NCBI GenBank assembly: GCA_035500755.1 | Contig: DATJXB010000067.1 | Coordinates: 36,023 to 100,022 of the forward strand | Direction of reading: 5' to 3' | Origin: Thermoanaerobaculia bacterium | GTDB lineage: Bacteria > Acidobacteriota > Thermoanaerobaculia > UBA5066 > Gp7-AA6 | DNA: 64,000 bases | Shown here: positions 246 to 63,535 of the stretch, in pieces | Position numbering within the stretch: the first letter of the stretch is position 1 | Layout: each line of letters begins with the position of its first letter | The notes under the pieces: generated by a model | What the model was told of the DNA's origin: nothing | What the model saw: the letters and a program-made list of their open reading frames with translations, nothing else | Databases searched by the model: none | Program-made: the position numbers and the translations under genes

Positions 246-287
246 CCCCCCTCACCCTTGCCCTCTCCCCCCAAGGGGAGGAGAGGG
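246..287. repeat. Copy 1 of a ~40-bp C/G-rich palindromic repeat family (CCCCTCACCC..CCCTCTCCC..GGGAGAGGG); intergenic, between the aldolase start and the ChlI-like gene stop
   Basis: cccccctcacccttgccctctccccccaaggggaggagaggg. Internal inverted repeat ccctctcc / ggagaggg. Near-identical copies at 48257-48300, 58979-59015 (opposite strand) and 63499-63535 (opposite orientation). Confidence 0.8.
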
Positions 288-7359: not shown

Positions 7360-10300
7360 CTAGGCTTTCTCGAGCTGGACGAGGAACGTCTTGAATTCGG
7401 GCGTCCACGTGTTCGGATCCATGGCGGACGGGGTCAGGAAGTTGGCCAGCGGTCCCGTGTGCCCGCCCGTGGCGTCGTAACCCCAGTGCAGCGGGAAGCC
7501 GATGTACCAGACCTGCTTGCCGTCGACGGTGAGCGGACGCAGGCGCTTGGTGACCATGGCGACGCCCTCGATCGAGCCGCGCGCCGACGTGACCCGCGCC
7601 CGGCCGCCGTTGGTGATTCCCTTGTCCTTCGCGAGCTGCTCCGGGATCTCGATGAAGAAGCCCGGCTGGAGCTGGTTCAACCGGTCGATGTTCTTGGTCC
7701 AGTAGTGGTACATCTCGGTCAGGCGATACGTCGTGCAGATGATCGGGAACTTGTCCGCCGAGCCGTAGACGTCCTTGTCCGACTTGAACTTCTTGACGAC
7801 CGGGCTGGAGGTCACCTTCGGGTGCAGCGGGTTCGGGACGGCCGCCTCGACGGCCTCGTAGTGCTCGGGGAAGGGGCCGTCGTTCAACGGCGCGAAGAGC
7901 TTGCCGACGCCTTCCGGCAGCATGATGAAGGCGCCGAATTCTCCGGGCGGCGAGTCGGGCTTGATGTCGGGGACGTCGCCGACCCACTTCTCGCCGTTCC
8001 ACTTGATGCCGACCCGGGTCGGATCCCAGGGTTTTCCGGCCGCGTCCGCCGAGGCGCGGTTGTACATGACCCGCCGGTTCGCCGGCCAGGAGAAGGTCCA
8101 GTTGGGGTACATGCCGAGGTTCGACGGGCTGTCCACCGACACGCGGCGCTGCGTCAGGTTGCCGGCTTCCGTGAAGCAGCCCGACATGAGCCAGTTGCCG
8201 CACATCGTCGAGCCGTCGTCCTGGAGCTGCCCGAACCCGTCGAGCTGCTGGCCGGCGGTCTTGAGGACCTTCGTCTTGTCCTTGGGGTCCGGGATGTCCG
8301 CGAGGGCCTTGCCGTTCAACTCCTTCAGGCACTCCGCAAGATCCGGAGAGGTCGGGTTGGAGTAGGACCAGTCGACGTTGAGCACCGCCTCGGGGAGGGC
8401 CCCGCCCTCCTTCCGGTAGAGCTCGCGGACGGCGAGGAAGATGCGCGCCAGGATCTCCTGATCCGACTTGGCCTGGCCGGGCGGATCCACGGCCTTCCAC
8501 TTCCACTGGATCCAGCGCGCGGAGTTGGTGAAGGAGCCGTCCTTCTCGGCAAACGTCGCCGCCGGAAGCTGGAAGACCTCCGTCTGGATCTGCGCCGCCG
8601 GCGCGCCGCCGTATTCCTTGGGCGCCTGCCAGAAGTTGGCCGACTCGATCTCGTGGTTCTCGCCGACGACCAGCCACTTCAGCTTCGAGAGGGCGGCGAC
8701 CATTTTGGGCACGTTCGGGCCGATGCCGACCGGGTTCATGCCGAACGTGATCAGGCCTTCGGGGCCCGGCTCCTTGGCGCCGGCGCGGTCGGCGTTGCCG
8801 CGGTACATGTCGTCGTAGATGTACATCCACGAGTAGTTGCCGTCGGTTTTCGGCAGCCAGTCGTAGCCGAAGTCGTTTTCCTTCGTGGCCGCCTTCCCAT
8901 AGACGGCCTTCAGGAGCGAGACCATGAACTTGGGGTAGTTCTGCCAGTAGTTCATCGACGGGCCGAGGGCCTTCGGGACGTTGGCCTCGTTGTATTCCTT
9001 CAGGCTCTGCCACTGGGACGTCGGCGTCTTGACGTAGCCCGGCAGGATCTCGAAGGTGCCCGCGGTGTCGGTCGCGCCCTGGATGTTGGAGTGGCCGCGC
9101 AGGGCGTTGACGCCGCCGCCGGGCCGCCCGACGTTGCCGAGGAGCAGCTGCAGCATGGCGGCCGCCCGGATCATCTGGACGCCGACCGAGTGCTGAGTCC
9201 AGCCGAGCGCGTACATGATCGTCCCGCAGCGCTGCGCGTTGCCGGTCGAGGTCACGACCTCGGCGACCTTCAGGAACGTGTCTTTCGGCGTGCCGCAGAC
9301 CTTCTCGACGGTTTCCGGCGTGTAGCGGTCGACGTGCTGCTTCAGCAACTGGAAGATGCAGTGGGGGTCCTGCATCGTCGGGTCCGTCTTCGCAAATCCG
9401 GTCTTCGCGTCGAGCTGGTAGCTCCAGGAATCCCGCTTGTAGCTGCCGGAGGCCTCCTCGAAGCCGGAGAAGAGCCCTTCGTCGAACTTGTAGTCGGGGT
9501 TGACGAGAAGCGGGCCGCTCGTGAACAGCTTGACGTATTCCTCGTGGTAGCGGTTGTTCGCGATCGCGTAGCGGATGATCCCGAGCAGATACGCGATGTC
9601 GGTCCCCGGCCGGATCGGCGAGTAGAGATCCGCGACCGCGGCGGTCCGCGTGAAGCGCGGGTCGACGGCGACGAGCTTGGCGTTACGGGTCTTCTTCGCC
9701 TCGATCGCCCACTTGAATCCGCAGGGATGGTTCTCGGCGGGGTTGCCGCCCATGCACAGGACGACGTCGGCATTCTTGATGTCGACCCATCCGTTGGTCA
9801 TCGCCCCCCGGCCGAACGTGGCGGCCAAACTGGCCACCGTGGGGCCGTGTCAAACCCGGGCCTGGCTGTCCCGGTACGGCACCCCCAGGGCCGTGATCGT
9901 CTTCCACTGAAGCCAGTTGAATTCGGTCGTGTCGGTGCACCCGCCGATCATCGCGATGCCGGGCGTGCGGTTGACCAGCTGGCCCTTGGCGTTTTTCGCG
10001 ACGAAAGTCCTGTCGCGGGTCGTCTTGATGTGGCGGGCGATCTGGGAGATGGCGTCGTCCCAGGAGATGTCCTCCCAGTGGTCCGACCCGGGACGCCGGA
10101 CCTTGGGCGTCGTGAGACGGTCCTTGCTGTTGATGTCGTCCTTGACCGTTGCGCCCTTGGGGCAGAGCGTGCCGCGGTTGATCGGGTGGTCGGGATCGCC
10201 CTCCACGTACACGACGGATGCCGTCGCGTTCTTGGCCTTGTCGCCGAGGGTATGGATGATCATCCCGCACGAGACCGCGCAGTACGGACAGGTACTTCGC

Positions 10301-10425
10301 GTCTCGGTCGTGCGCGCGATCTTGAACTCGCGCATTTCGGCCTCGGCCCTGGAGACGTCGAACCCGAGGGCGATGGTGGTTCCGAGACCGGTGGCCTTCA
10401 AGAACCCGCGACGGGTGACCTCCAT
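7360..10425 (-). CDS. fdnG: Formate dehydrogenase-N catalytic alpha subunit; selenoprotein with in-frame UGA (Sec) at 9850-9852, TAT signal
   Basis: Table ORFs 9850-10425 (191 aa, MEVTRRGFLKATGLGTT...CPYCAVSCG...SQARV) and 7360-9837 (825 aa) are one frame. The junction reads DSQARV-TGA-HGPTVASLAATFGRGAMTNGWVDIK, matching the E. coli FdnG/FdoG RV-U-HGPTVASLAPTFGRGAMTN selenocysteine site. RR TAT motif at the N-terminus. Molybdopterin oxidoreductase motifs throughout. Confidence 0.9.
9820..9852 (-). promoter_or_regulatory. Candidate bacterial SECIS hairpin downstream of the fdnG UGA codon
   Basis: mRNA: UGA CACGGCCCCAC GGUGGCC AGUUU GGCCGCC. A 7-bp stem (one G.U) with a 5-nt loop starts 11 nt after UGA, matching E. 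coli fdhF/fdnG SECIS geometry. Confidence 0.5.
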
Positions 10426-10530
10426 GGACCCTCCTCTCCAGGGAATCCTGAAGCAAATGCCGCGCCCAGGTGAATTCCATTCCTCGCTGCCGCCGAAGTC
10501 AAGGAAAAGTCGAAAATTCGGCCGCTCGGT

Positions 10531-11949
10531 TCAGGCGGTTGGCGCCGCGGCGGGTTCACGGGCCGGCGCCTTGACCACGGTAACGGTGCAGGTCGCCTCC
10601 GCCGCCACCCGGGAGGAGACGCTGCCGAGGTAACGCCGCAGCGTCGAGCTGCCCCGGGAGCCGACCACGAGGTGGTCGACGTGGTTGGCCGCTGCGAACT
10701 CGACCAGGGCCGACCCCGGATCGGGAGCCTCGAGGACGTGATGAGTCACGCGGCCGACCCCGAGGCCCAGCGGCCTCGCCCAGTGCCGCAGCTCGACGAG
10801 GAGCTGGACTCGGACGCTGCGTCCTTGCGCGTTCAGGGTCGAATCCATCGCAATGCGAGAGGTTTTGAGGACGGTCAGGCACGCCAGGCGCGCGCCCGGC
10901 TCGGTTTCGAGGACCCGCCGTGTCGTCAGGAGGAGCGCCTCGAGCAGGGCTTCCGACCCCTGGGAAAGGTCGAGCGCGACCGCCACGAGGGGGGCCCGCG
11001 AAATCTGGCCCGCGGCCGACCTTCCGAGGTCCGGCTCCTCCCCGTGGGTGCGCAGCCGCCGCTTGAGGACCGTCAGGGCGCCGTCCCGGGCGAGGCGGCT
11101 CGAGCGGGCCGTCAGCGGAATCTCCTCGGGGTGCTGAAGATCGAAGGCGAGGTGGGCGGCCGTCTGGTAGCGCGTTCCGGGCGCCACTTCCAGGCACCGG
11201 AGGATCACTTCCTGGAGCCAGGGCGGACACTCGGGGTTGCGGGCGCGCGGCGGGACCGGGTCGCGGTAGAGACGCTGGCGGAGCCCCCGCACGCTCGTCG
11301 GGTTGCCGAAGGGCCGTTGGCCGGTGGCGAGGTAGTAGAGGACGACGCCGAGGGAGAAGAGGTCGCTGCGCGGATCGTTCCGGATCTGGGCGATCTGCTC
11401 GGGCGAGATGTACGGCCCCGTGCCGATCGGCAGCCGGAACTGCTCGGCCAGCAGGTCGGGCAGCCGGTCGTGCCGCGACAGCCCGAAGTCGATCAGGACC
11501 GCCGCGCCGCCCTCGCGGAACATGACGTTGGACGGTTTGACGTCGAGGTGGATGACGTGCTGCCCATGGAGGTCATGGAGGGCGTCGGCGATCCGGGCGC
11601 CGTAGGAGGCCACTTCTCGGGGCGGCAGCGGCGCGTCGTCGACCCGGGCGCGGAGCGACGGTCCGGCGAGGTGCTCCAGGACGATGTACGGCTGGGTCGA
11701 CCAGTCGCCGGCCGCCACGAAGCGCGGCACGTGGATCCCGGAGAGTGTCGGCAGGATCATCTGCTCGACCTCGAAGCCGACGAGGGCGGCGGGGTCGTCG
11801 CCGTCGCGGAAAGACGGAATCTTCATGACGAGCGGATCGGCGCCTTCGGGACGGCGCACCCGCCAGATCTCCGCCATGCTTCCCTGGTGGATCTTCTCCT
11901 CGAGGACGTAGCCGTCGAGGACGAGTCCGGGCCGTCGCGCCGCGGTCAC
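10531..11949 (-). CDS. Ser/Thr protein kinase (Hanks type) fused to a C-terminal universal stress protein (UspA) domain
   Basis: GTG start overlapping the phosphoesterase stop (GTGA). Kinase motifs ...GSMAEIWRV...VMKIP...HLDVKPSNVMF...DFGLS...GTGPYISPE. C-terminus ...HVDHLVVGSRGSSTLRRYLGSVSSRVAAEATCTVTVVK is UspA-like. The upstream 229 codons of the table ORF are out-of-frame overlap. Confidence 0.8.
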   Translation of the reverse strand: MTAARRPGLVLDGYVLEEKIHQGSMAEIWRVRRPEGADPLVMKIPSFRDGDDPAALVGFEVEQMILPTLSGIHVPRFVAAGDWSTQPYIVLEHLAGPSLRARVDDAPLPPREVASYGARIADALHDLHGQHVIHLDVKPSNVMFREGGAAVLIDFGLSRHDRLPDLLAEQFRLPIGTGPYISPEQIAQIRNDPRSDLFSLGVVLYYLATGQRPFGNPTSVRGLRQRLYRDPVPPRARNPECPPWLQEVILRCLEVAPGTRYQTAAHLAFDLQHPEEIPLTARSSRLARDGALTVLKRRLRTHGEEPDLGRSAAGQISRAPLVAVALDLSQGSEALLEALLLTTRRVLETEPGARLACLTVLKTSRIAMDSTLNAQGRSVRVQLLVELRHWARPLGLGVGRVTHHVLEAPDPGSALVEFAAANHVDHLVVGSRGSSTLRRYLGSVSSRVAAEATCTVTVVKAPAREPAAAPTA

Positions 11950-47300: not shown

Positions 47301-50300
47301 GTGACGGCGGCGGCCGAGCGCGTCTTCGAAGTGAGGCTTCCGGGCGAGCACGACTTCGACGTCTACGCCTCCTCGCTCTCGGGCGAAACGCTCTCGCAGG
47401 CGCTCGCGGCGATCGAGGCGCTCGCCGAGCGGTTCGGCTTCACCGACGATCTCGTCGTCTTCGTCGAGTACCCGTCATGGGAGCCGCTCGCCCGGGCGCT
47501 GCGGGAGCGCTTCGGCTGGCGCGTCGTCTACGACTGTATGGACGAGCACACGGGGTTCGGCACGCACGGCCCGGAGACGGAGAGCGACGAACGCCGGCTC
47601 GTCGCGGAGGCGAACCTCGTCGCCGCCACGTCGCGCCTCCTCCTCGAAAAAGTCCGCCGGGTTCGACCCGACGTGCTCGCGGTACCCAACGCGGGCGATC
47701 CGGCGCATTTCGAGGCGCTGCCCGCGCGCGCGGCGAGCCCGCTCGCGGCGCTGCCGCGGCCCGTCGTCGGCTATTACGGGGCGATCGCGGCCTGGTTCGA
47801 CGCGCCGGCGGTGGCCGACGCGGCGCGGCGCCACCCGGAGTGGTCCTTCGCGCTCGTCGGCGGCGTCTCCGGCGCCGACCTCGCGAGCCTCGAGGGCCGG
47901 CCCAACGTCCACCGCTTTGGCGAAGTGCCCTACGAGAAGCTGCCCGCCTGGGTCGCGGGGTTCGACGTGTGCACGATCCCGTTCGAGCGCTCGCCCCTGA
48001 CCGAGGCGACCAACCCGGTCAAGGTCTTCGAGTACCTGGCGACCGGCAAGCCCATCGTCGCGCGCCGGCTCCCCGAGCTCGAGGCGCTGGGGGACGCGGT
48101 GAGCCTGTACGACGCGCGCGAGCGGTTTGCCGCCGCGCTCGAGCAGGCGGTGCGCGAGGACCCGGCCGCCCCGGTCGTCGCCCGCCGCCGCGCCCTCGCC
48201 CGCGAGAACACGTGGGACGCGCGTTACCGGGTGCTGAAGGACGCGATCGCGGGCATCCCCCCCTCACCCCGACCCTCTCCTCCTCGAGGGGGAAGAGGGA
48301 GCCTGGACGGCGCCGCGCTCGCCGCGCGCGTGCGCGAGATCCGCCGCCTCGACGGGATCATCCGCGAACAAAAGGAGGGGATCGAGTACCTCCGCGCCGT
48401 CGTCGACCAGCGGGAGCGAGAGCTCGAGGAAGCCCGCAGCATCTCGGACGCGAGGGACGTGCACCTCTCCGCCGCGCTCGCCGAGCTCGAGCGCTGGGAG
48501 AAGTCGCGGCTCGGGCGCCTTCGACGCGCCGCCGAACGCGTCAAGGGCGCCGCCGGCCGGGCGACGGCGCCGGGCACGCCTCTCTTCGCGGTCGGGTCGA
48601 GGGTTCTTCCGCGGCCGCTCGCGCGCTTCCTGCGGCGCGCGTTCGCGCCCGTCGCCTCGAAGGCCATGGTCGAGGCCGCCGACGCCTCGGAGACGGCCTC
48701 GGGCCGCCGCACGACGGCGGCGATTCCCATGGAGCCCGCGGGCCGCTACGACACGATCGTCTTCTCGATCATCGACTGGGACTTCCGCTTCCAGCGTCCG
48801 CAGCAGCTCGCGACCCAGTTCGGCCGCCACGGCCACCGCGTCTTCTACCTGTCGACGTCGAAGTTCCTCAACCCGAAGGGGCCGGCCTGGGACCTCGCGC
48901 GCCAGGCGGAGAACGTCGCGGAGCTGAGGCTCCGTTCCCGCCGAGGCCTCGACGTCTACGGAGGCCGCCTCGACGCCGCCGACGTCGACGGTCTCGTCGC
49001 TTCCTTCGAGGCGCTCGCCCGGGACCTCGCGATCGGCGACGCGGTCTGCCTCGTCCAGATCCCGTTCTGGGCCCCGCTCGCCTTCGCCTTGAAACGCCGG
49101 CTCGGCTGGAAGGTCGTCTACGACTGCATGGACGAGTGGACGAATTTCCCCGGCTTCGGCGAGAGCGTCCTCTCGCTCGAGGAGAGCCTCGTGCGGGCCG
49201 CCGACGCGACGATCGTCTCGGCGGACCGCCTCGAGCAGAAGTGGCGGGCGGCGGCGCCGCGCCTGATCCTCGCCCGCAACGCGATGGACGCCGAGCACTA
49301 CCGGAGCCGGTTCGGGCCCAACGACCTGCTCGCCGGCGCGCGGCACCCGATCATCGGCTACTACGGCGCGCTCGCCTCGTGGGTCGACGCGCCCCTGCTG
49401 GCGAAGATCGCGGCGAGGTACCCGAACGGCACGCTCGTGCTCGCGGGCGGCCGTTTCGACGTGGACCTCTCGACGATCGAGAAGCTGCCGAACGTGCGCC
49501 TGCTCGGCCAGCGGCCGTACGACGAGATGCCGAAGCTCCTCTGGGACTTCGACGCCTGCATGATCCCGTTTCTCGTCAACGACATCACCGAGGCGACGAA
49601 CCCGGTCAAGTTCTACGAGTATCTCTGGGGCGGCAAGCCCGTCGTCGCGCCGGCGCTGACGGAGCTTCTGCCCTACGCCGGGATCTCCTATCTCGCCCAC
49701 GGCCACGACGAGTTCCTCGCCCAGCTCGACCGCGCGCTCGCCGAGGCCCCGGACGACCCGCGCCGGGCCGAGCGCCGCCGCGTGGCCGAAGAGAACGACT
49801 GGGCTCACCGCTACGCGACGATTGCCGGCGCCCTCGACGCGGCGTTCCCGGTCGTTTCCGTCGTCGTCGTCACGTACGGCGGGCTCGAGCTGACCCGGGC
49901 GTGCCTCGCCTCGCTCCTCGAGCGCGAGACGTGGCCGCGCCTCGACGTCGTCGTCGTCGACAATGCCTCCACCGACGGGACGCCGGAGTACCTCGCCGAG
50001 GTCGCCCGCCGCGACCCGCGCGTGCGCGTGATCGCGAATCGCGAGAACCGCGGCTTCGCGGCGGCGAACAACCAGGGCATCGCGCTCTCGGCCGGCGAGA
50101 TCGTCGTCCTCTTGAACAACGACACGGTCGTGCCGCCCGGCCTGATGGGCCGCCTCGCGGGCCACCTCCAGCGCGACGCGTCGATCGGCCTTCTGTGTCC
50201 GACGACCAACTTCTGCGGCAACGAGGCGCGCGTCGAGCCGGACTACGCGGACCTCGCGGATCTCCCGGCCTACGCCGCGCGGCGTGCCCGCGAGCACCGC

Positions 50301-50660
50301 GGCCGCGTCTTCGACATCGGCGTCGCGGCGATGTACTGCGTCGCCGCGCGGCGGGCGGTTCTCGACGACGTGGGCCCCCTCGACGAGGCCTACGGCATCG
50401 GCATGTTCGAGGACGACGACTTCGCGGTGCGGATGCGCGGAAAGGGCCACCGCGTCTGCTGCGCCGAGGACGCGTACGTGCACCACGTCGGCCAGGGCGC
50501 GTTCCGCAAGCTCTCGCCCGAAGCCTACGACGCGTTGTGGAAGAAGAACCAGGCCTACTTCGAGAAGAAGTTCGCACGAGAGTGGAAGGCGCACGTGCCG
50601 CGGGAAGGCGTGGCGGCGGTGGCGTCGAAGGTCGGAGCGGAACAGGGGGAGCGCGCATGA
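47301..50660 (+). CDS. Tri-modular glycosyltransferase: two tandem GT4-like (group 1) modules separated by a coiled-coil linker, plus a C-terminal GT2 (family 2) domain; homology continues upstream to ~47150 with no canonical start codon
   Basis: Module 1 ...IIDWGFRFQRPQQL...EVPYEKLPAWVAGFDVCTIPFERSPLTEATNPVKVFEYLATGKPIV... and module 2 ...IIDWDFRFQRPQQL...QRPYDEMPKLLWDFDACMIPFLVNDITEATNPVKFYEYLWGGKPVV... are clear internal duplicates. C-terminus ...VVVVTYGGLELTRACLASL...VVVVDNASTDGTPEYL... is GT2. First in-frame ATG/GTG/TTG is GTG 47301, yet the conserved module-1 N-terminus is encoded from ~47150 in the same frame. Confidence 0.75.
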   Translation: MTAAAERVFEVRLPGEHDFDVYASSLSGETLSQALAAIEALAERFGFTDDLVVFVEYPSWEPLARALRERFGWRVVYDCMDEHTGFGTHGPETESDERRLVAEANLVAATSRLLLEKVRRVRPDVLAVPNAGDPAHFEALPARAASPLAALPRPVVGYYGAIAAWFDAPAVADAARRHPEWSFALVGGVSGADLASLEGRPNVHRFGEVPYEKLPAWVAGFDVCTIPFERSPLTEATNPVKVFEYLATGKPIVARRLPELEALGDAVSLYDARERFAAALEQAVREDPAAPVVARRRALARENTWDARYRVLKDAIAGIPPSPRPSPPRGGRGSLDGAALAARVREIRRLDGIIREQKEGIEYLRAVVDQRERELEEARSISDARDVHLSAALAELERWEKSRLGRLRRAAERVKGAAGRATAPGTPLFAVGSRVLPRPLARFLRRAFAPVASKAMVEAADASETASGRRTTAAIPMEPAGRYDTIVFSIIDWDFRFQRPQQLATQFGRHGHRVFYLSTSKFLNPKGPAWDLARQAENVAELRLRSRRGLDVYGGRLDAADVDGLVASFEALARDLAIGDAVCLVQIPFWAPLAFALKRRLGWKVVYDCMDEWTNFPGFGESVLSLEESLVRAADATIVSADRLEQKWRAAAPRLILARNAMDAEHYRSRFGPNDLLAGARHPIIGYYGALASWVDAPLLAKIAARYPNGTLVLAGGRFDVDLSTIEKLPNVRLLGQRPYDEMPKLLWDFDACMIPFLVNDITEATNPVKFYEYLWGGKPVVAPALTELLPYAGISYLAHGHDEFLAQLDRALAEAPDDPRRAERRRVAEENDWAHRYATIAGALDAAFPVVSVVVVTYGGLELTRACLASLLERETWPRLDVVVVDNASTDGTPEYLAEVARRDPRVRVIANRENRGFAAANNQGIALSAGEIVVLLNNDTVVPPGLMGRLAGHLQRDASIGLLCPTTNFCGNEARVEPDYADLADLPAYAARRAREHRGRVFDIGVAAMYCVAARRAVLDDVGPLDEAYGIGMFEDDDFAVRMRGKGHRVCCAEDAYVHHVGQGAFRKLSPEAYDALWKKNQAYFEKKFAREWKAHVPREGVAAVASKVGAEQGERA
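48257..48300. repeat. Copy 2 of the C/G-rich palindromic repeat family, inserted in frame in the glycosyltransferase linker (encodes PPSPRPSPPRGGRGS)
   Basis: ccccccctcaccccgaccctctcctcctcgagggggaagaggga. Confidence 0.8.
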
Positions 50661-56755: not shown

Positions 56756-57882
56756 CCCGCGAACGCCAGCGGAATCGAGAGCGCCACGCGGCACCCGCGC
56801 CCCGGCGCTCCGTCGAAGGAAAAGGCGTGGTCCGGACCGAAGAGGAGATCGAGGCGGTCGCGGGTGTTGCGCAGCCCGACGCCCTCGCCGCCGCCGCGCC
56901 GGCCGCCCGGGGGCGGCCCCGGACCGTCGTCCCGCACGACGAGCCCGAGGCGGCGCTCGCCCTCGCGTGCCACGCAGACCTCGACGCGTCCCGCGCCCGG
57001 GCGGGCGGCGATGCCGTGCTTGATCGCGTTTTCGACGAGCGGCTGCAGGATCAGCGTCGGCACGAGGGCGTCGCCGAGTCCCGGCGCGACGTCGAAGGAG
57101 ACCGTCAGGCGGTCCTGGAACCGCGTCTCCTGGATCTCGAGGTAGACCTTGAGGAGCTCGATCTCCTGGCAGAGCGGCAGCAGGTCGCGCGTCTCGTTCT
57201 GGAGCGAGAGCCGGAGCAGATCCGACAGGCGCACGACCGTCCGCGAGGCGGCGTCGGCGTCGCGGAACACGAGCGGCAGGATGCTGTTGAGCGCGTTGAA
57301 GAGAAAGTGCGGGTGGAGCTGCATCTTCAGCGCTTCGAGGCGGGCGCTCGCCAGGCGCGTCTTGACCTGCGAGGCGCGGATCTCGCGTTCGCGCGAGAGC
57401 TTCGCGTAGGTGAGAGCCCACGCGAAGCCGACGATGGCCCAGAACGTCACGAGGTGCGTCGGCAGCGACAGCCGGAGCAGTCCCGGCAGCGCCGAGAGCT
57501 GCGCCGACACGACGCAGGGGAATCCCATCAGGAGCGGATACGCGAGCTGGTAGAGCGCGCCGTGGAACACCGCGAAGACGACGGACGCCGCCGCGAGAAG
57601 GCCGAGCGGCGCGGCCCAGGCGTCCTTGCGGGGGCGGCACCGCTTTGCCAGCGCGACGACGAACGGCGTGAAGGCCGCCCAGAGGTAGGCCCAGAGGAGA
57701 CACTGCGCGAGCGCTTCCCAGGCGCCGAACTCGAGACGGCGCAGCTGAAATGGATCCGAGAAATAGCGGTCGGCGGCGCGGAAGATCCCGACGAGGGTCC
57801 AGCCGCCGACGATCCACGCGGCGCGGCGCACGCGGCGGTCGGTGCTCGAGCGGGCGGCGGCGCCCTGGCCGAGGCGGCTCAT
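56752..57882 (-). CDS. LytS/YehU-type sensor histidine kinase (His_kinase PF06580-like), copy A
   Basis: ATG overlapping the upstream kinase stop. 4-5 TM, then ...LKMQLHPHFLFNALNSILPLV... (H-box) and an HATPase_c region. Confidence 0.8.
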   Translation of the reverse strand: MSRLGQGAAARSSTDRRVRRAAWIVGGWTLVGIFRAADRYFSDPFQLRRLEFGAWEALAQCLLWAYLWAAFTPFVVALAKRCRPRKDAWAAPLGLLAAASVVFAVFHGALYQLAYPLLMGFPCVVSAQLSALPGLLRLSLPTHLVTFWAIVGFAWALTYAKLSREREIRASQVKTRLASARLEALKMQLHPHFLFNALNSILPLVFRDADAASRTVVRLSDLLRLSLQNETRDLLPLCQEIELLKVYLEIQETRFQDRLTVSFDVAPGLGDALVPTLILQPLVENAIKHGIAARPGAGRVEVCVAREGERRLGLVVRDDGPGPPPGGRRGGGEGVGLRNTRDRLDLLFGPDHAFSFDGAPGRGCRVALSIPLAFAG

Positions 57883-59030
57883 GCCGCGCCCTCCGCGGGA
57901 AGCGTCGACTCCGACAGGGGCGCGTAGGGCAGCCACAGCGCGACCTCGTGGCCCTTCTCGAGCTTGTCGGAGATCGCGACGCCGTGCGCCGCCGGGTACA
58001 GGAGCTCGAGCCGGCGCTTCGTGCGCCGGATGAACGAGTCGTCGAGGGGCGCCGGCGAGGCGCCATACGACGGGCCGGCCGGGGATTCGTCCACCTCGAC
58101 GTGGAGAGCGTCGCTCTCGACGCGGGCGCGCAGGACGACGCGCGCGCGTCCGGCCCGCGCCGAGGCGCCGTTGGCGATCGCCCCCTCGCAGAGCGGCAGG
58201 AGGACGAGGTTGGGCACGGCCGCGTCGAGCGCCTCGGGCGCGATCGCGAAGACGACCTCGAGGCGGTCCTTCAGGCGCGTCTGCTCGATCTGGAGGTAGA
58301 GCCGGACGACGTCGAGCTCGGCCTTCAACGGCACGAGGCTCGTGGCGTCGTTGTGCAGCGCGAGCCGGAGGATGTCGCCGAGCTGGACGACGGTGCGGGC
58401 GGCCGCCCGCGGGTCGGTTCGGATCAGCGGCAGGATCGTCGCGAGCGTGTTGAACAGGAAGCCGGGGTGGAGGCGGAGCTTCAACGTCTCGAGCTGGGTG
58501 CCGACGAGCTCGCGCTCGAGCTCGGAGGCCTGGAGCTCGTGCTCGCGGTAGGCGTGGAAGTCGTCGATCGCCCAGGTCACGCCCGCGATGCCGACGAAGG
58601 TGGCCAGCCGCGCCGCGCCGCCGAAAGCGAGGGTCGCGAGGAAAGTCGCCATGAAGTCGGGCCCGCGGCCGGCCTCGTCGGCCGCGCTCCAGAAGAGGTT
58701 CGTCGCGAGCAGGTGGACGAGGGCCGCGGCCAGTCCCGCGGCCGCGAGCCCGAGCGCGTTCCGGACGAAGACGCCGCGGCGCGGACGGAAGCGCCGCGCC
58801 GCGCGCATGCAGAGCGGGGTCAGGAGCGCCCAGATGAAGGCGGTCACGGCGCTCGCGGCGACCGCGCGCCCCCACGGCAGCGCCAGGCGCGGCTGCAGCG
58901 ACGGCCCGCGCAGGTAGCGCTGGGTCGCGATGAAGAAGGCGACGGCGGTCCAGACGAGGGCGATAGAAAGCCTCGCCGCCCCTCTCCCTCCGGGAGAGGG
59001 GGTAGGGGTGAGGGGCATCCGCTCGCTCAC
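57879..59030 (-). CDS. LytS/YehU-type sensor histidine kinase, copy B (tandem paralogue); a repeat-element copy is embedded at its 5' end
   Basis: ...LKLRLHPGFLFNTLATILPLI... Same architecture as copy A. N-terminus MSERMPLTPTPSPGGRGAARLS is encoded by the repeat element at 58979-59015. Confidence 0.8.
   Translation of the reverse strand: MSERMPLTPTPSPGGRGAARLSIALVWTAVAFFIATQRYLRGPSLQPRLALPWGRAVAASAVTAFIWALLTPLCMRAARRFRPRRGVFVRNALGLAAAGLAAALVHLLATNLFWSAADEAGRGPDFMATFLATLAFGGAARLATFVGIAGVTWAIDDFHAYREHELQASELERELVGTQLETLKLRLHPGFLFNTLATILPLIRTDPRAAARTVVQLGDILRLALHNDATSLVPLKAELDVVRLYLQIEQTRLKDRLEVVFAIAPEALDAAVPNLVLLPLCEGAIANGASARAGRARVVLRARVESDALHVEVDESPAGPSYGASPAPLDDSFIRRTKRRLELLYPAAHGVAISDKLEKGHEVALWLPYAPLSESTLPAEGAA
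58979..59015. repeat. Copy 3 of the C/G-rich palindromic repeat family (forward on the minus strand), inside the 5' end of kinase copy B
   Basis: Plus strand: cccctctccctccgggagagggggtaggggtgagggg. Confidence 0.8.
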
Positions 59031-63498: not shown

Positions 63499-63535
63499 CC
63501 CCTCTCCCGGCGGGAGAGGGCGGGGGTGAGGGGGG
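63499..63535. repeat. Copy 4 of the C/G-rich palindromic repeat family (reverse orientation), intergenic after the permease
   Basis: cccctctcccggcgggagagggcgggggtgagggggg. Confidence 0.8.

What the first reader, a model, noticed from the sequence alone, without database searches (positions are those of the whole stretch)
246..287. A ~40-bp C/G-rich palindromic repeat family occurs four times in 64 kb, in both orientations
Copies at 246-287, 48257-48300, 58979-59015 and 63499-63535 share the architecture CCCCTCACCC-(2-4 nt)-CCCTCTCC(C)-(3-8 nt)-GGGAGAGGG with an internal stem. Two are intergenic and just 3' of genes, so they may act as REP-like terminators or mRNA stabilisers. Two are inside coding sequence. 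This looks like a genome-wide REP/MITE-like element. Such elements are useful markers for strain typing, and their hosts in this (apparently Acidobacterial) lineage are poorly catalogued.
Basis: seen in the sequence. Interest (0 to 1): 0.55.

Follow-up and report, generated by a model that had tools for sequence, protein, structure and literature searches.

The report
Known BoxC repeats, tied to endonuclease gene
The four G/C-rich palindromic repeats are real copies of a short repeat family already known from E. coli (BoxC, also called PIT or TM_ECO), here in an acidobacterial genome with two copies read in frame inside genes; follow-up suggests the family forms the inverted ends of a small selfish element that carries a DUF559 endonuclease gene.

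Summary
All four copies exist at the stated coordinates. Three fit a strict pattern with 0 expected by chance. The source is a Thermoanaerobaculia (Acidobacteriota) MAG.

Read on the G-rich strand, each copy is CCCTCTCCC-loop-GGGAGAGGG-N3-GGGTGAGGG. This is the published BoxC / PIT / TM_ECO "intrastrand triplex" repeat (Holder et al. 2015, 3610 copies in 262 proteobacterial genomes, function and origin unknown). The repeat kind is therefore already known.

New points for this window:
- Two copies lie in frame inside genes: a glycosyltransferase linker, and codons 2-13 of a histidine kinase.
- Orthologues carry the repeat at the same linker in either orientation.

New point for the family: in three independent samples it flanks a about 115-aa DUF559 (Vsr-like) endonuclease gene as about 35-nt terminal inverted repeats.
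- All 10 DUF559 genes or fragments found in 240 BoxC-selected loci adjoin a copy.
- 50 of 80 DUF559 loci chosen by protein alone carry BoxC within 250 nt, 27 on both sides.
- One element pair is 88% identical exactly end to end, with unrelated flanks.

I read the window copies as solo, non-autonomous derivatives of that element. No DUF559 gene was seen in the about 74 kb of this genome examined, and the mobilisation chemistry is inferred, not shown. The terminator or mRNA-stabiliser idea is not supported.

The parts
246..287 (-). BoxC copy 1, solo. Minus strand reads CCCTCTCCTCCCC-TT-GGGGGGAGAGGG-CAA-GGGTGAGGGGGG, with an extended 12-bp hairpin plus the third arm. It lies in the 80-nt spacer between the AAA_5 gene stop (319) and the ATG (238) of an HpcH/HpaI aldolase gene, ending 8 nt before that ATG.
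48257..48300 (-). BoxC copy 2, solo and degenerate. Minus strand reads CCCTCTTCCCCC..GGAGGAGAGGG-TCG-GGGTGAGGGGGG. It is in frame on the plus strand inside the GT1-GT2 glycosyltransferase gene and encodes PPSPRPSPPRGGRGS in the inter-domain linker.
58979..59015 (+). BoxC copy 3, solo: CCCCTCTCCC-TCC-GGGAGAGGGG-GTA-GGGGTGAGGGG (10-nt arms, 3-nt loops). On the minus strand it is codons 2-13 (PLTPTPSPGGRG) of the His_kinase gene that starts at ATG 59018.
63499..63535 (+). BoxC copy 4, solo and an exact fit to the published TM_ECO pattern: CCCTCTCCC(63500-08)-GGC-GGGAGAGGG(63512-20)-CGG-GGGTGAGGG(63524-32)-G. It nearly fills the 46-nt spacer between the convergent MacB/FtsX gene (stop 63494) and the TOBE-domain gene (stop 63541).
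47301..50660 (+). Host gene of copy 2: a 1119-aa glycosyltransferase with GT1 (Glyco_trans_1_4) and GT2 (Glycos_transf_2) domains. Orthologues carry BoxC at the same linker in either orientation or reading frame.
57879..59018 (-). Host gene of copy 3: a LytS-type histidine kinase (PF06580). Its N-terminal tail is built from the repeat. The orthologue in L123 has a different, longer tail and no repeat.

Best explanation
The four sequences belong to the BoxC / PIT / TM_ECO family of short interspersed repeats. Each is a 9-10 bp G/C hairpin (CCCTCTCCC / GGGAGAGGG) followed after about 3 nt by a near-repeat of the second arm (GGGTGAGGG).

I infer that the family is the about 35-nt terminal inverted repeat of a small (about 390-540 bp) selfish element. 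Its only gene encodes a about 115-aa DUF559 protein, a Vsr-like PD-(D/E)xK endonuclease. The hairpins sit at the outer ends and the third arms face the gene. On this reading the window copies are solo, non-autonomous derivatives, comparable to REP relative to its RAYT gene or to a MITE or solo end relative to its parent transposon. They persist where they do no harm: in tight intergenic spacers, or in frame in disordered protein segments. The repeat can be read without a stop in the frames seen here, encoding Pro/Ser/Gly/Arg-rich peptide.

Shown:
- Family membership.
- The physical association of BoxC with DUF559 genes.
- Element boundaries that coincide with the repeats.
- In-frame tolerance of the repeat.
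- Turnover of the repeat at one orthologous site.

Inferred:
- That the DUF559 nuclease recognises the repeats and drives their spread.
- That spread proceeds by a homing or repair-templated route rather than cut-and-paste transposition.
- That solo copies need the nuclease supplied in trans.

No host function is required by this explanation.
For: Family membership
- Copy 4 fits the published pattern CCCTCNCCC N3-6 GGGNGAGGG N3 GGGNGAGGG exactly.
- Copy 3 fits with 10-nt arms.
- Copies 1 and 2 are degenerate versions.
- E. coli K-12 copies listed in PMC4666352 are nearly identical, for example CCCTCTCCCTGTGGGAGAGGGCCGGGGTGAGGGC.

Association with DUF559
- Among 120 BoxC-selected genome loci, ORF clustering put DUF559 third among recurrent families, after ABC ATPases and enoyl-CoA hydratases.
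- All 7 DUF559 genes or fragments there lie within 150 nt of a copy, and 3 are flanked on both sides by inverted copies.
- Among 120 BoxC-selected viral contigs, all 3 DUF559 genes are flanked within 42-131 nt.
- Reciprocally, 80 metagenomic DUF559 loci were chosen by protein motif alone. Of these, 50 carry BoxC within 250 nt and 27 carry it on both sides. The dominant layout has the left copy reading toward the gene 10-50 nt upstream and the inverted right copy 0-50 nt downstream. Background further away is 14 copies in 134 kb.
- Left and right repeats of one element share variant arms and loops (L129, L152, L172, L189).

A discrete unit
- L157 and L169 are 88% identical over 435 bp. The homology starts 2 nt before the left hairpin and ends about 4 nt after the right hairpin, and the flanks are unrelated.
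- A whole repeat-DUF559-repeat unit sits in frame in the MetRS linker of three Burkholderiales-type loci.

E. coli K-12
- ycjD (DUF559) has an intact BoxC, the original envM/fabI one, 163 nt downstream.
- Its stop codon overlaps a degenerate right-end repeat.

Protein identity
- Pfam DUF559 matches 6 of 6 proteins.
- The PDB match is 3HRL at E = 1e-34.
- Putative catalytic D...ExD...H positions are invariant.
- The Vsr/DUF559 clade includes a group I intron homing endonuclease (PMC3424549).

Turnover in this lineage
- Glycosyltransferase orthologues carry consensus-quality BoxC at the same linker in opposite orientations. The window has the C-rich orientation and its 89%-identical relative L121 has the G-rich one.
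- L122 has the C-rich orientation and L123 has an interrupted copy.
- The copy 3 site is empty in L123.
Against: - No DUF559 gene or fragment was found in the window, in about 10 kb beyond its left end, in three related loci or in three other acidobacterial loci. A partner in this genome is therefore unverified.
- All evidence that DUF559 mobilises BoxC is associative. No activity is known for the protein.
- A about 115-aa nuclease cannot by itself carry out strand transfer.
- Full elements show no target-site duplication (observed 4.04 against a null of 3.95).
- Of five E. coli filled-versus-variant comparisons, only pstA-pstB gave a clean 84-bp unit flanked by an 8-bp direct repeat. That pattern could equally be a microhomology deletion.
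- The 80 DUF559 loci were the ones most similar to a BoxC-associated query, so 62% may overstate the rate for the whole DUF559 family.
- 30 of those 80 loci have no detectable repeat.
- The intact BoxC near E. coli ycjD is in the non-canonical orientation.
Confidence: 0.68

Rival explanations
1. The repeats are host-serving RNA or DNA hairpins. They would act as REP-like transcription terminators or 3' mRNA stabilisers, maintained by selection at gene ends.
For: Copies 1 and 4 lie just 3' of genes, and copy 4 sits between convergent genes where a bidirectional terminator would be expected. The hairpins of copies 1, 3 and 4 are stable at -10.5 to -11.8 kcal/mol.
Against: - No T/U run follows any copy.
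- Copies 2 and 3 are translated.
- Orientation relative to transcription differs between copies.
- Hairpin z-scores are only -1 to -1.5, and copy 2 is no better than shuffles.
- Functional tests in E. coli summarised in PMC4666352 found no promoter or terminator activity and no effect on RNA polymerase.
- This rival does not explain the conserved third arm, the cross-phylum sequence identity or the DUF559 association.
Confidence: 0.07
2. The repeat is selected for the non-B DNA structure it can adopt: a purine-motif intrastrand triplex, or a G-quadruplex/hairpin switch. It would act as a built-in generator of local genome variability or as a regulatory switch. The DUF559 association would then be secondary.
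For: - The arms obey purine-motif triad rules. Arm 3 (GGGTGAGGG) antiparallel to GGGAGAGGG gives G*G:C, T*A:T and A*A:T triads; this is my reading of the sequence.
- The single-stranded oligonucleotide forms a stable triplex in vitro, and BoxC loci are more variable between E. coli strains (PMC4666352).
- The G-rich strand also fits G3N3G3N3G3N3G3 and shows a K+/Mg2+-dependent switch in CD spectra (PMC5100583).
- I saw structure-linked instability directly: a 12-nt slippage deletion between arms 2 and 3, and a deletion collapsing an inverted pair to one hairpin.
Against: - In duplex form no triplex was detected, and in vivo DMS footprinting gave no protection.
- Triplex or G4 rules would tolerate many arm variants, yet GGGAGAGGG and GGGTGAGGG are near-invariant across phyla. 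This is partly enforced by my search pattern.
- That degree of conservation points to sequence-specific recognition or recent common descent.
- Presence/absence variability is what a mobile element produces anyway.
- Selection for 'variability' does not explain paired inverted copies that bracket one particular gene.
Confidence: 0.12
3. BoxC is an independent REP-like element mobilised by some other, unidentified factor. DUF559 genes would simply be a favoured landing site or a passenger captured between two copies.
For: - Most copies are solo, with only about 4% of BoxC-selected loci holding DUF559.
- 30 of 80 DUF559 loci have no repeat.
- Tandem and oppositely arranged copies occur around some DUF559 genes (L140, L148, L154, L190, L200).
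- None was found near the window copies.
Against: - Spacing and inverted orientation are consistent across unrelated contigs.
- Left and right repeats co-vary within an element.
- The L157/L169 homology block ends exactly at the repeats and includes the gene.
- The whole unit is inserted in frame in MetRS.
- No other recurrent candidate gene family appeared in 120 neighbourhoods.
Confidence: 0.1
4. The similarity is chance low-complexity resemblance in a 70% G+C genome.
For: The 8-mer CCCTCTCC alone is not enriched, with 8 observed against 6.1 expected.
Against: The composite pattern gives 0 hits in 100 shuffles against 3 observed. The same 33-40 nt sequence occurs in hundreds of unrelated genomes. 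It also matches a published family base for base.
Confidence: 0.01

Closest known systems
BoxC / PIT (potential intrastrand triplex) element / TM_ECO triplex motif of E. coli and other Proteobacteria (Bergler 1992 and Hoyne & Maher 2000 as cited in Holder et al. 2015; Holder et al. 2015, PMC4666352; Kaplan et al. 2016, PMC5100583)
   Same: The three-arm architecture and near-identical arm sequences are the same. So are the 3-6 nt first loop and about 3 nt second loop, occurrence in both orientations, occurrence as solo copies and inverted pairs, and presence/absence variation between relatives.
   Different: - The host is an acidobacterium, whereas the published census under the strict pattern listed Proteobacteria.
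- Two of the four copies are translated in frame, whereas E. coli copies are 'always intergenic'.
- The gamma-proteobacterial unit carries an extra conserved outer flank (CTCGGTCGGYC) that the window copies lack.
- The published work found no linked mobility gene. Here a DUF559 gene is linked.
REP / REPIN elements with their RAYT (TnpA_REP, IS200/IS605-type Y1 transposase) genes
   Same: The logic matches: a short palindromic repeat in many solo or paired copies, plus a rare single-copy gene flanked by inverted copies of the same repeat. There is also no target-site duplication.
   Different: The associated protein is a PD-(D/E)xK (Vsr-like) nuclease, not an HUH tyrosine transposase. There is no GTAG/CGTC tag. 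The repeat has a third arm. No Y1 transposase recurred near BoxC.
MITEs (non-autonomous derivatives of DDE transposons)
   Same: Inverted pairs of BoxC with a short spacer look like internally deleted full elements. Examples are E. coli hrpB-mrcB, L008 and L031.
   Different: There is no detectable target-site duplication at full elements, no DDE transposase, and solo single-end copies predominate.
Free-standing or intron-borne homing endonucleases of the Vsr-like clade (I-Bth0305I, PDB 3R3P; grouped with DUF559 in PMC3424549)
   Same: The nuclease fold clade is the same. Both are small selfish genes, both insert into conserved host genes without destroying them, and both recur at the same site in related genomes.
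   Different: There is no intron or intein here. The element is simply translated through, and it has terminal inverted repeats that also exist alone in large numbers. Homing alone would not explain spread to new, non-homologous sites.

Membership tests
BoxC / PIT / TM_ECO repeat | Sequence pattern 5'-CCCTCNCCC N3-6 GGGNGAGGG N3 GGGNGAGGG-3' with at most one arm mismatch (PMC4666352) | tested here: met
   Copy 4 matches exactly. Copy 3 matches with 10-nt arms and 3-nt loops. Copies 1 and 2 match with 2-3 arm substitutions and a longer or extended first loop.
BoxC / PIT / TM_ECO repeat | Multi-copy and interspersed, with no strand bias | tested here: met
   There are four copies in 64 kb, two per strand. 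Other acidobacterial genomes also carry copies (L026, L088, L101). The genome-wide count for this MAG could not be obtained.
BoxC / PIT / TM_ECO repeat | Intergenic location ('always intergenic' in E. coli K-12) | tested here: not met
   Copies 2 and 3 lie in frame inside coding sequence. I treat this as a descriptive property of the E. coli set rather than a defining one, because in-frame copies also occur elsewhere (L002, L012).
BoxC / PIT / TM_ECO repeat | Single strand folds into a purine-motif intrastrand triplex | not testable with these tools
   The arm sequences satisfy G*G:C, T*A:T and A*A:T triads on inspection. Only the hairpin part can be computed, at -10.5 to -11.8 kcal/mol for copies 1, 3 and 4.
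Terminal inverted repeat of a DUF559-endonuclease element (proposed here) | Two inverted copies bracket a DUF559 ORF, with hairpins outermost | tested here: not met
   This holds for the family at large. It does not hold for the window copies: an HMM search of six-frame translations found no DUF559 in the window or the neighbouring 10 kb. The window copies are solo.
REP/RAYT (REPtron) | Y1 (HUH) transposase gene flanked by the repeats, with a conserved GTAG/CGTC tetranucleotide at the hairpin foot | tested here: not met
   No recurrent transposase family appeared in 120 neighbourhoods, and there is no GTAG/CGTC tag in the consensus. I did not run a dedicated Y1_Tnp profile search.
Intrinsic terminator | G/C hairpin immediately followed by a T-run on the transcribed strand | tested here: not met
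   No T-run follows any copy on either strand.
Any Rfam RNA family | Covariance-model match at the gathering score | tested here: not met
   The only hit in the window is SECIS_3 at 9797-9855.

The most novel reading that the evidence does not exclude
The BoxC / PIT / TM_ECO repeats were catalogued in E. coli in the early 1990s and have been studied since only as triplex or G-quadruplex curiosities with no known origin. On this reading they are the terminal inverted repeats, and the abundant solo or paired derivatives, of a pan-bacterial family of about 430-bp selfish elements. The sole gene of each element is a DUF559 (YcjD-type, Vsr-like) endonuclease. These elements and their solo ends insert without target duplication, often in frame into inter-domain linkers and protein termini. 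They turn over repeatedly at the same site, and so add Pro/Ser/Gly/Arg-rich linker peptide to host proteins. None of the papers found in the searchable library links DUF559 or ycjD to these repeats. Holder et al. state that they found no mobility gene nearby.
Probability: 0.55. Interest if true: 0.75.

Novelty: new member of a known kind. Interest (0 to 1): 0.55.

Why it matters
Taken as given, the finding re-discovers a catalogued repeat. Its practical value is for annotation. These 35-40 nt units explain odd Pro/Ser/Gly/Arg-rich insertions in proteins (PSPxPSPxGGRG, PLSxRERxGVRG, PLTPxLS), shifted start sites and tight intergenic palindromes in acidobacterial and many other genomes.

The larger value lies in the link to DUF559.
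- If confirmed, it gives a widespread domain of unknown function (E. coli YcjD) a role.
- It gives a long-unexplained repeat family a parent element.
- It adds a second, mechanistically different counterpart to the REP/RAYT system.
- It recasts the reported 'genomic instability' at triplex motifs as ordinary mobile-element turnover.
- It makes the question directly testable with E. coli genetics, using ycjD and the 23 BoxC copies.

Tried and rejected
- **Rfam.** A gathering-threshold scan of the whole window found no family at any copy.
- **Folding energy as evidence.** z-scores are weak because any shuffle of this composition folds well.
- **Arm covariation (triplex rule).** The loci were fetched with a pattern that fixes the arms, so variation is censored. 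I counted variants but draw no conclusion from them.
- **Conserved flanks of solo copies.** There is nothing beyond 1-2 pyrimidines on the left, apart from lineage-specific flanks in gamma-Proteobacteria.
- **Target-site duplications at 25 full elements.** None found.
- **Palindromic target hypothesis.** Flanks are slightly more reverse-complementary than chance (3.44 against 2.54 of 10, p about 0.002). I could not separate this from repeats that extend a few nt beyond my pattern.
- **E. coli filled-versus-empty comparisons at five K-12 BoxC sites.** Only pstA-pstB is clean: an 84-bp unit plus an 8-bp direct repeat AACCGTGT. The others show recombination between sub-repeats, replaced sequence or unrelated REP insertions. 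The direction of change (insertion or deletion) was not polarised with an outgroup.
- **Source-genome look-ups.** Two of five exact-protein look-ups failed, probably because my start codons differ from those of the recorded gene calls. The right-hand extension of the contig was therefore not examined.
- **DUF559 in the window's lineage.** None was found in the sequence held. I did not spend a 5.8-billion-protein search on it because the top-120 listing was unlikely to settle the lineage question.
- **Regex classification of linker peptides.** On the glycosyltransferase tree it over-calls the G-orientation class in distant clades. Only the DNA-verified cases and the clear peptide signatures are used.
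Full report
**1.

The composite pattern CCCTCACCC N1-8 CCCTCTCC N2-14 GGAGAGGG finds three of them, against none in 100 dinucleotide-preserving shuffles. The fourth copy (48257-48300) has the same layout with a degenerate hairpin and appears once mismatches are allowed. Two copies have their G-rich strand on plus and two on minus.

Read on the G-rich strand, every copy is arm 1 (CCCTCTCCC), a short loop, arm 2 (GGGAGAGGG, the complement of arm 1), about 3 nt, then arm 3 (GGGTGAGGG, a one-base variant of arm 2).

The hairpins of copies 1, 3 and 4 are stable as single-stranded DNA (-10.5 to -11.8 kcal/mol). They are only about 1-1.5 SD better than shuffles of the same G/C-rich sequence, and copy 2 is no better than shuffles. 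Folding energy is therefore not the evidence here. Sequence recurrence is.

**2. Context in the window**

Gene calls come from third-position G+C, Pfam and the gene calls recorded for the source contig.

| Copy | Position | Context |
|---|---|---|
| 1 | 246-287 | 80-nt spacer between an AAA_5 gene (stop 319) and an HpcH/HpaI aldolase gene (ATG 238), both on minus |
| 2 | 48257-48300 | In frame in a 1119-aa GT1-GT2 glycosyltransferase; encodes PPSPRPSPPRGGRGS just after the GT1 domain |
| 3 | 58979-59015 | Follows the ATG (59018) of a LytS-type histidine kinase and supplies codons 2-13. No alternative start exists downstream before conserved sequence |
| 4 | 63499-63535 | Nearly fills the 46-nt gap between convergent MacB/FtsX and TOBE-domain genes |

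The source is a Thermoanaerobaculia (Acidobacteriota) MAG: a 100% identical protein carries that annotation.

**3. What the repeat is**

A full-text search for the two arm sequences led directly to Holder et al. 2015 (PMC4666352).

- Their Table 1 lists 23 E. coli K-12 copies such as CCCTCTCCCTGTGGGAGAGGGCCGGGGTGAGGGC.
- They define the pattern CCCTCNCCC N3-6 GGGNGAGGG N3 GGGNGAGGG, named TM_ECO. It was earlier called BoxC, and later PIT (potential intrastrand triplex) element.
- They counted 3610 copies in 262 proteobacterial genomes.
- They showed that the single strand forms a purine-motif triplex in vitro. They found no triplex in duplex DNA or in vivo.
- They recall earlier negative tests for promoter and terminator activity.
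- They found more strain-to-strain variation at these loci.
- They state that they never found transposase or integrase remnants nearby.

Kaplan et al. 2016 (PMC5100583) re-found the same motif as a G-quadruplex/hairpin switch.

Copy 4 fits the published pattern exactly and copy 3 fits with 10-nt arms. Copies 1 and 2 are degenerate. The family is therefore known, and its function and origin are not.

**4. Distribution**

- Hosts include Alpha-, Beta- and Gammaproteobacteria, Cyanobacteria and Chloroflexota.
- They also include Planctomycetota, Verrucomicrobiota and Myxococcota.
- Thermodesulfobacteriota, Omnitrophota and Bipolaricaulota are represented.
- There are three further Acidobacteriota.

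A scan of viral contigs also hit its ceiling. IMG/VR contigs can include host DNA, so this shows possible vehicles, not proof of phage carriage.

Outside the core, only 1-2 pyrimidines on the left are conserved. The exception is gamma-Proteobacteria, where E. coli and Pseudomonas copies share an outer flank, CTCGGTCGGYC.

**5. The link to a gene**

I called ORFs in the 120 genome loci and clustered them all-against-all. After two very large housekeeping families, the most recurrent family was a about 115-aa protein. It matches Pfam DUF559 in 6 of 6 cases, NCBIfam NF007294 and PDB 3HRL at E = 1e-34.

- All seven occurrences, including one fragment, lie within 150 nt of a BoxC copy. Three are bracketed by inverted copies. 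Sequence within that distance of a copy makes up roughly a tenth of these loci, so seven of seven is far beyond chance.
- The viral set replicated this, with three of three flanked.
- For the reciprocal test I fetched 80 metagenomic DUF559 loci selected by a protein motif only.
  - 50 carry BoxC within 250 nt: 39 on the left, 38 on the right, and 27 on both sides.
  - The dominant layout has the left copy reading arm 1, arm 2, arm 3 toward the gene 10-50 nt upstream.
  - The right copy is inverted, 0-50 nt downstream.
  - Further than 250 nt away there are only 14 copies in 134 kb.
- Complete units measure 390-540 bp, typically 420-450 bp.
- The two ends of a unit share their variant arms and loops. 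L129 and L152 carry GGGGGAGGG-type arms on both sides, and L172 and L189 carry matching loops.
- L157 and L169 are 88% identical over 435 bp. The homology begins 2 nt before the left hairpin and ends about 4 nt after the right hairpin, with unrelated DNA beyond. This delimits a discrete unit with the repeats as its ends.
- In E. coli K-12 the only gene of this family named in the record, ycjD, has the historical envM/fabI BoxC 163 nt downstream. Its stop codon overlaps a decayed right-end repeat, TCACCCTCTCCCTGAAAGAGCGAGGGGGCAGACCGAGCC.

None of the papers in the library that mention DUF559, ycjD, BoxC or intrastrand triplexes in bacteria makes this connection. The library does not cover subscription journals.

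**6. In-frame copies and turnover**

In-frame carriage is not peculiar to this window.

- A whole repeat-DUF559-repeat unit lies in frame between the MetRS core and its C-terminal tRNA-binding domain in three Burkholderiales-type loci.
- A solo copy lies between the membrane and ATPase domains of a verrucomicrobial ABC exporter.

For the window's glycosyltransferase, 47 orthologues (65-89% identity) were aligned. Many carry repeat-derived peptide at the same linker in three different readings:
- PSPxPSPxGGRG: C-rich strand, one frame.
- PLTPxLSRRERG: C-rich strand, another frame.
- PLSxRERxGVRG: G-rich strand.

DNA confirms this.
- The window and L122 have the C-rich orientation.
- The closest relative, L121 (89% protein identity), has a consensus-quality copy in the opposite orientation.
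- L123 has a copy interrupted by a about 60-nt insert.

On a tree built without the linker the states are intermixed, including between sister taxa. Either the site is hit repeatedly, or an ancestral two-ended or double-armed copy lost different arms in different lineages. Double-armed forms do exist (L051, L064, L073). I could not decide between these.

The copy 3 site is empty in L123, where the kinase has a different, longer N-terminal tail and a 4-nt spacer after the upstream gene.

**7. How it most likely works**

*Shown:* the repeats are the boundaries of a gene-carrying unit, they also occur alone in much larger numbers, they are gained, lost and re-oriented between relatives, and they are tolerated in frame.

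*Inferred:* the DUF559 nuclease recognises the repeats and initiates their spread, and solo copies depend on it in trans.

Full elements lack target-site duplications. The protein is far too small to be a conventional transposase. Its fold clade includes a homing endonuclease (PMC3424549). A nick or break followed by repair-templated copying therefore seems more likely than cut-and-paste.

The repeat's own geometry suggests a substrate. Arms 2 and 3 are 12-nt-offset direct repeats that differ at one base. Slipped pairing would therefore create a single mismatch of the kind Vsr-type enzymes nick. This is speculation.

I did see structure-linked instability directly.
- A 12-nt deletion that removes one arm plus the loop.
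- A collapse of an inverted pair to a single hairpin.
- One clean 84-bp presence/absence allele at pstA-pstB, flanked by an 8-bp direct repeat. This last pattern cannot distinguish insertion from microhomology deletion, and it did not recur at four other sites.

**8. Limits**

- No DUF559 gene was found in the window, in 10 kb beyond its left end, in three syntenic relatives or in three other acidobacterial loci. The partner in this lineage is unverified.
- The 62% figure comes from the DUF559 loci most similar to a BoxC-associated query.
- The arm-sequence invariance I report is partly imposed by my search pattern.
- All mechanistic steps beyond physical association are inference.

**9. Verdict**

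The repeat is a known kind (BoxC / PIT / TM_ECO) in a new host lineage, with two translated copies. The terminator and mRNA-stabiliser reading is not supported, and the REP/MITE-like reading is right in spirit. The most interesting outcome is outside the window: a reproducible association that identifies these repeats as the ends of a DUF559-endonuclease element.

Noticed in passing
window 9797-9855 (-), with ORFs 7360-9849 and 9850-10530 (-): Rfam SECIS_3 match (68.7 bits, above the gathering score) lies at an in-frame stop joining two high-GC3 ORFs. L221 gene calls show Molybdop_Fe4S4 plus Molybdopterin domains followed by Fer4, a cytochrome b and FdhE. This is a probable selenocysteine-containing formate dehydrogenase operon.
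   Followed up: partly
L123 about 10960-11100 (glycosyltransferase linker of a related Thermoanaerobaculia contig): The BoxC copy at the orthologous linker is split inside arm 2 by a about 60-nt insert (CCGTCCAGCGAAGGCAGACCCGCGGCAGTAGGCAACGCCGGCCCGGAGGGCCGGCGGTATC) bounded by GGGAG on both sides. The same about 20-aa peptide (EPSSEGRPAAVGNAGPEGRRY) recurs in orthologues P0008 and P0048. This may be a second small palindromic element nested in the first.
   Followed up: no
L209 (E. coli AHM21C2872I, pstA-pstB spacer) compared with L205: A natural allele lacks exactly 12 nt (GAGGGTTAGGGT), that is one arm plus the 3-nt loop. This is the product expected from replication slippage between arms 2 and 3.
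   Followed up: partly
L051 6874-6922, L064 1138-1181, L073 439-492: 'Double-armed' copies: one hairpin with a CCCTCACCC arm on the left and a GGGTGAGGG arm on the right. These are symmetric forms that could yield either orientation by losing one arm.
   Followed up: no
L011, L039, L113 (Pseudomonas) and L205, L214 (E. coli): Gamma-proteobacterial copies share about 11-30 nt of extra conserved sequence outside arm 1 (…CTCGGTCGGYC-CCCTC…). The repeated unit there is therefore larger than the 35-nt core, consistent with the 56-bp BoxC of the older literature.
   Followed up: partly
L152, L163, L192 (metagenomic contigs with orthologous flanks): Flanks align at 76-80% identity over about 1.2 kb, but the about 500-bp segment holding the DUF559 element does not align at the same threshold. 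The element is more diverged than its surroundings, or different variants occupy the same site.
   Followed up: no
window 246-257 relative to ATG 238: The G-rich third arm of copy 1 (GGGTGAGGGGGG on the minus strand) ends 8 nt upstream of the aldolase start codon, where a Shine-Dalgarno-like purine run would sit. The repeat may incidentally supply or disturb the ribosome-binding site.
   Followed up: no
L219 (E. coli DETEC-S589, zntA-tusA spacer): Next to the conserved BoxC copy, this strain has an extra 167 bp made of classical REP/BIME units (GCCGGATGCGGCGTGAACGCCTTATCCGGCCTAC type). Two unrelated repeat families have accumulated in one spacer.
   Followed up: no
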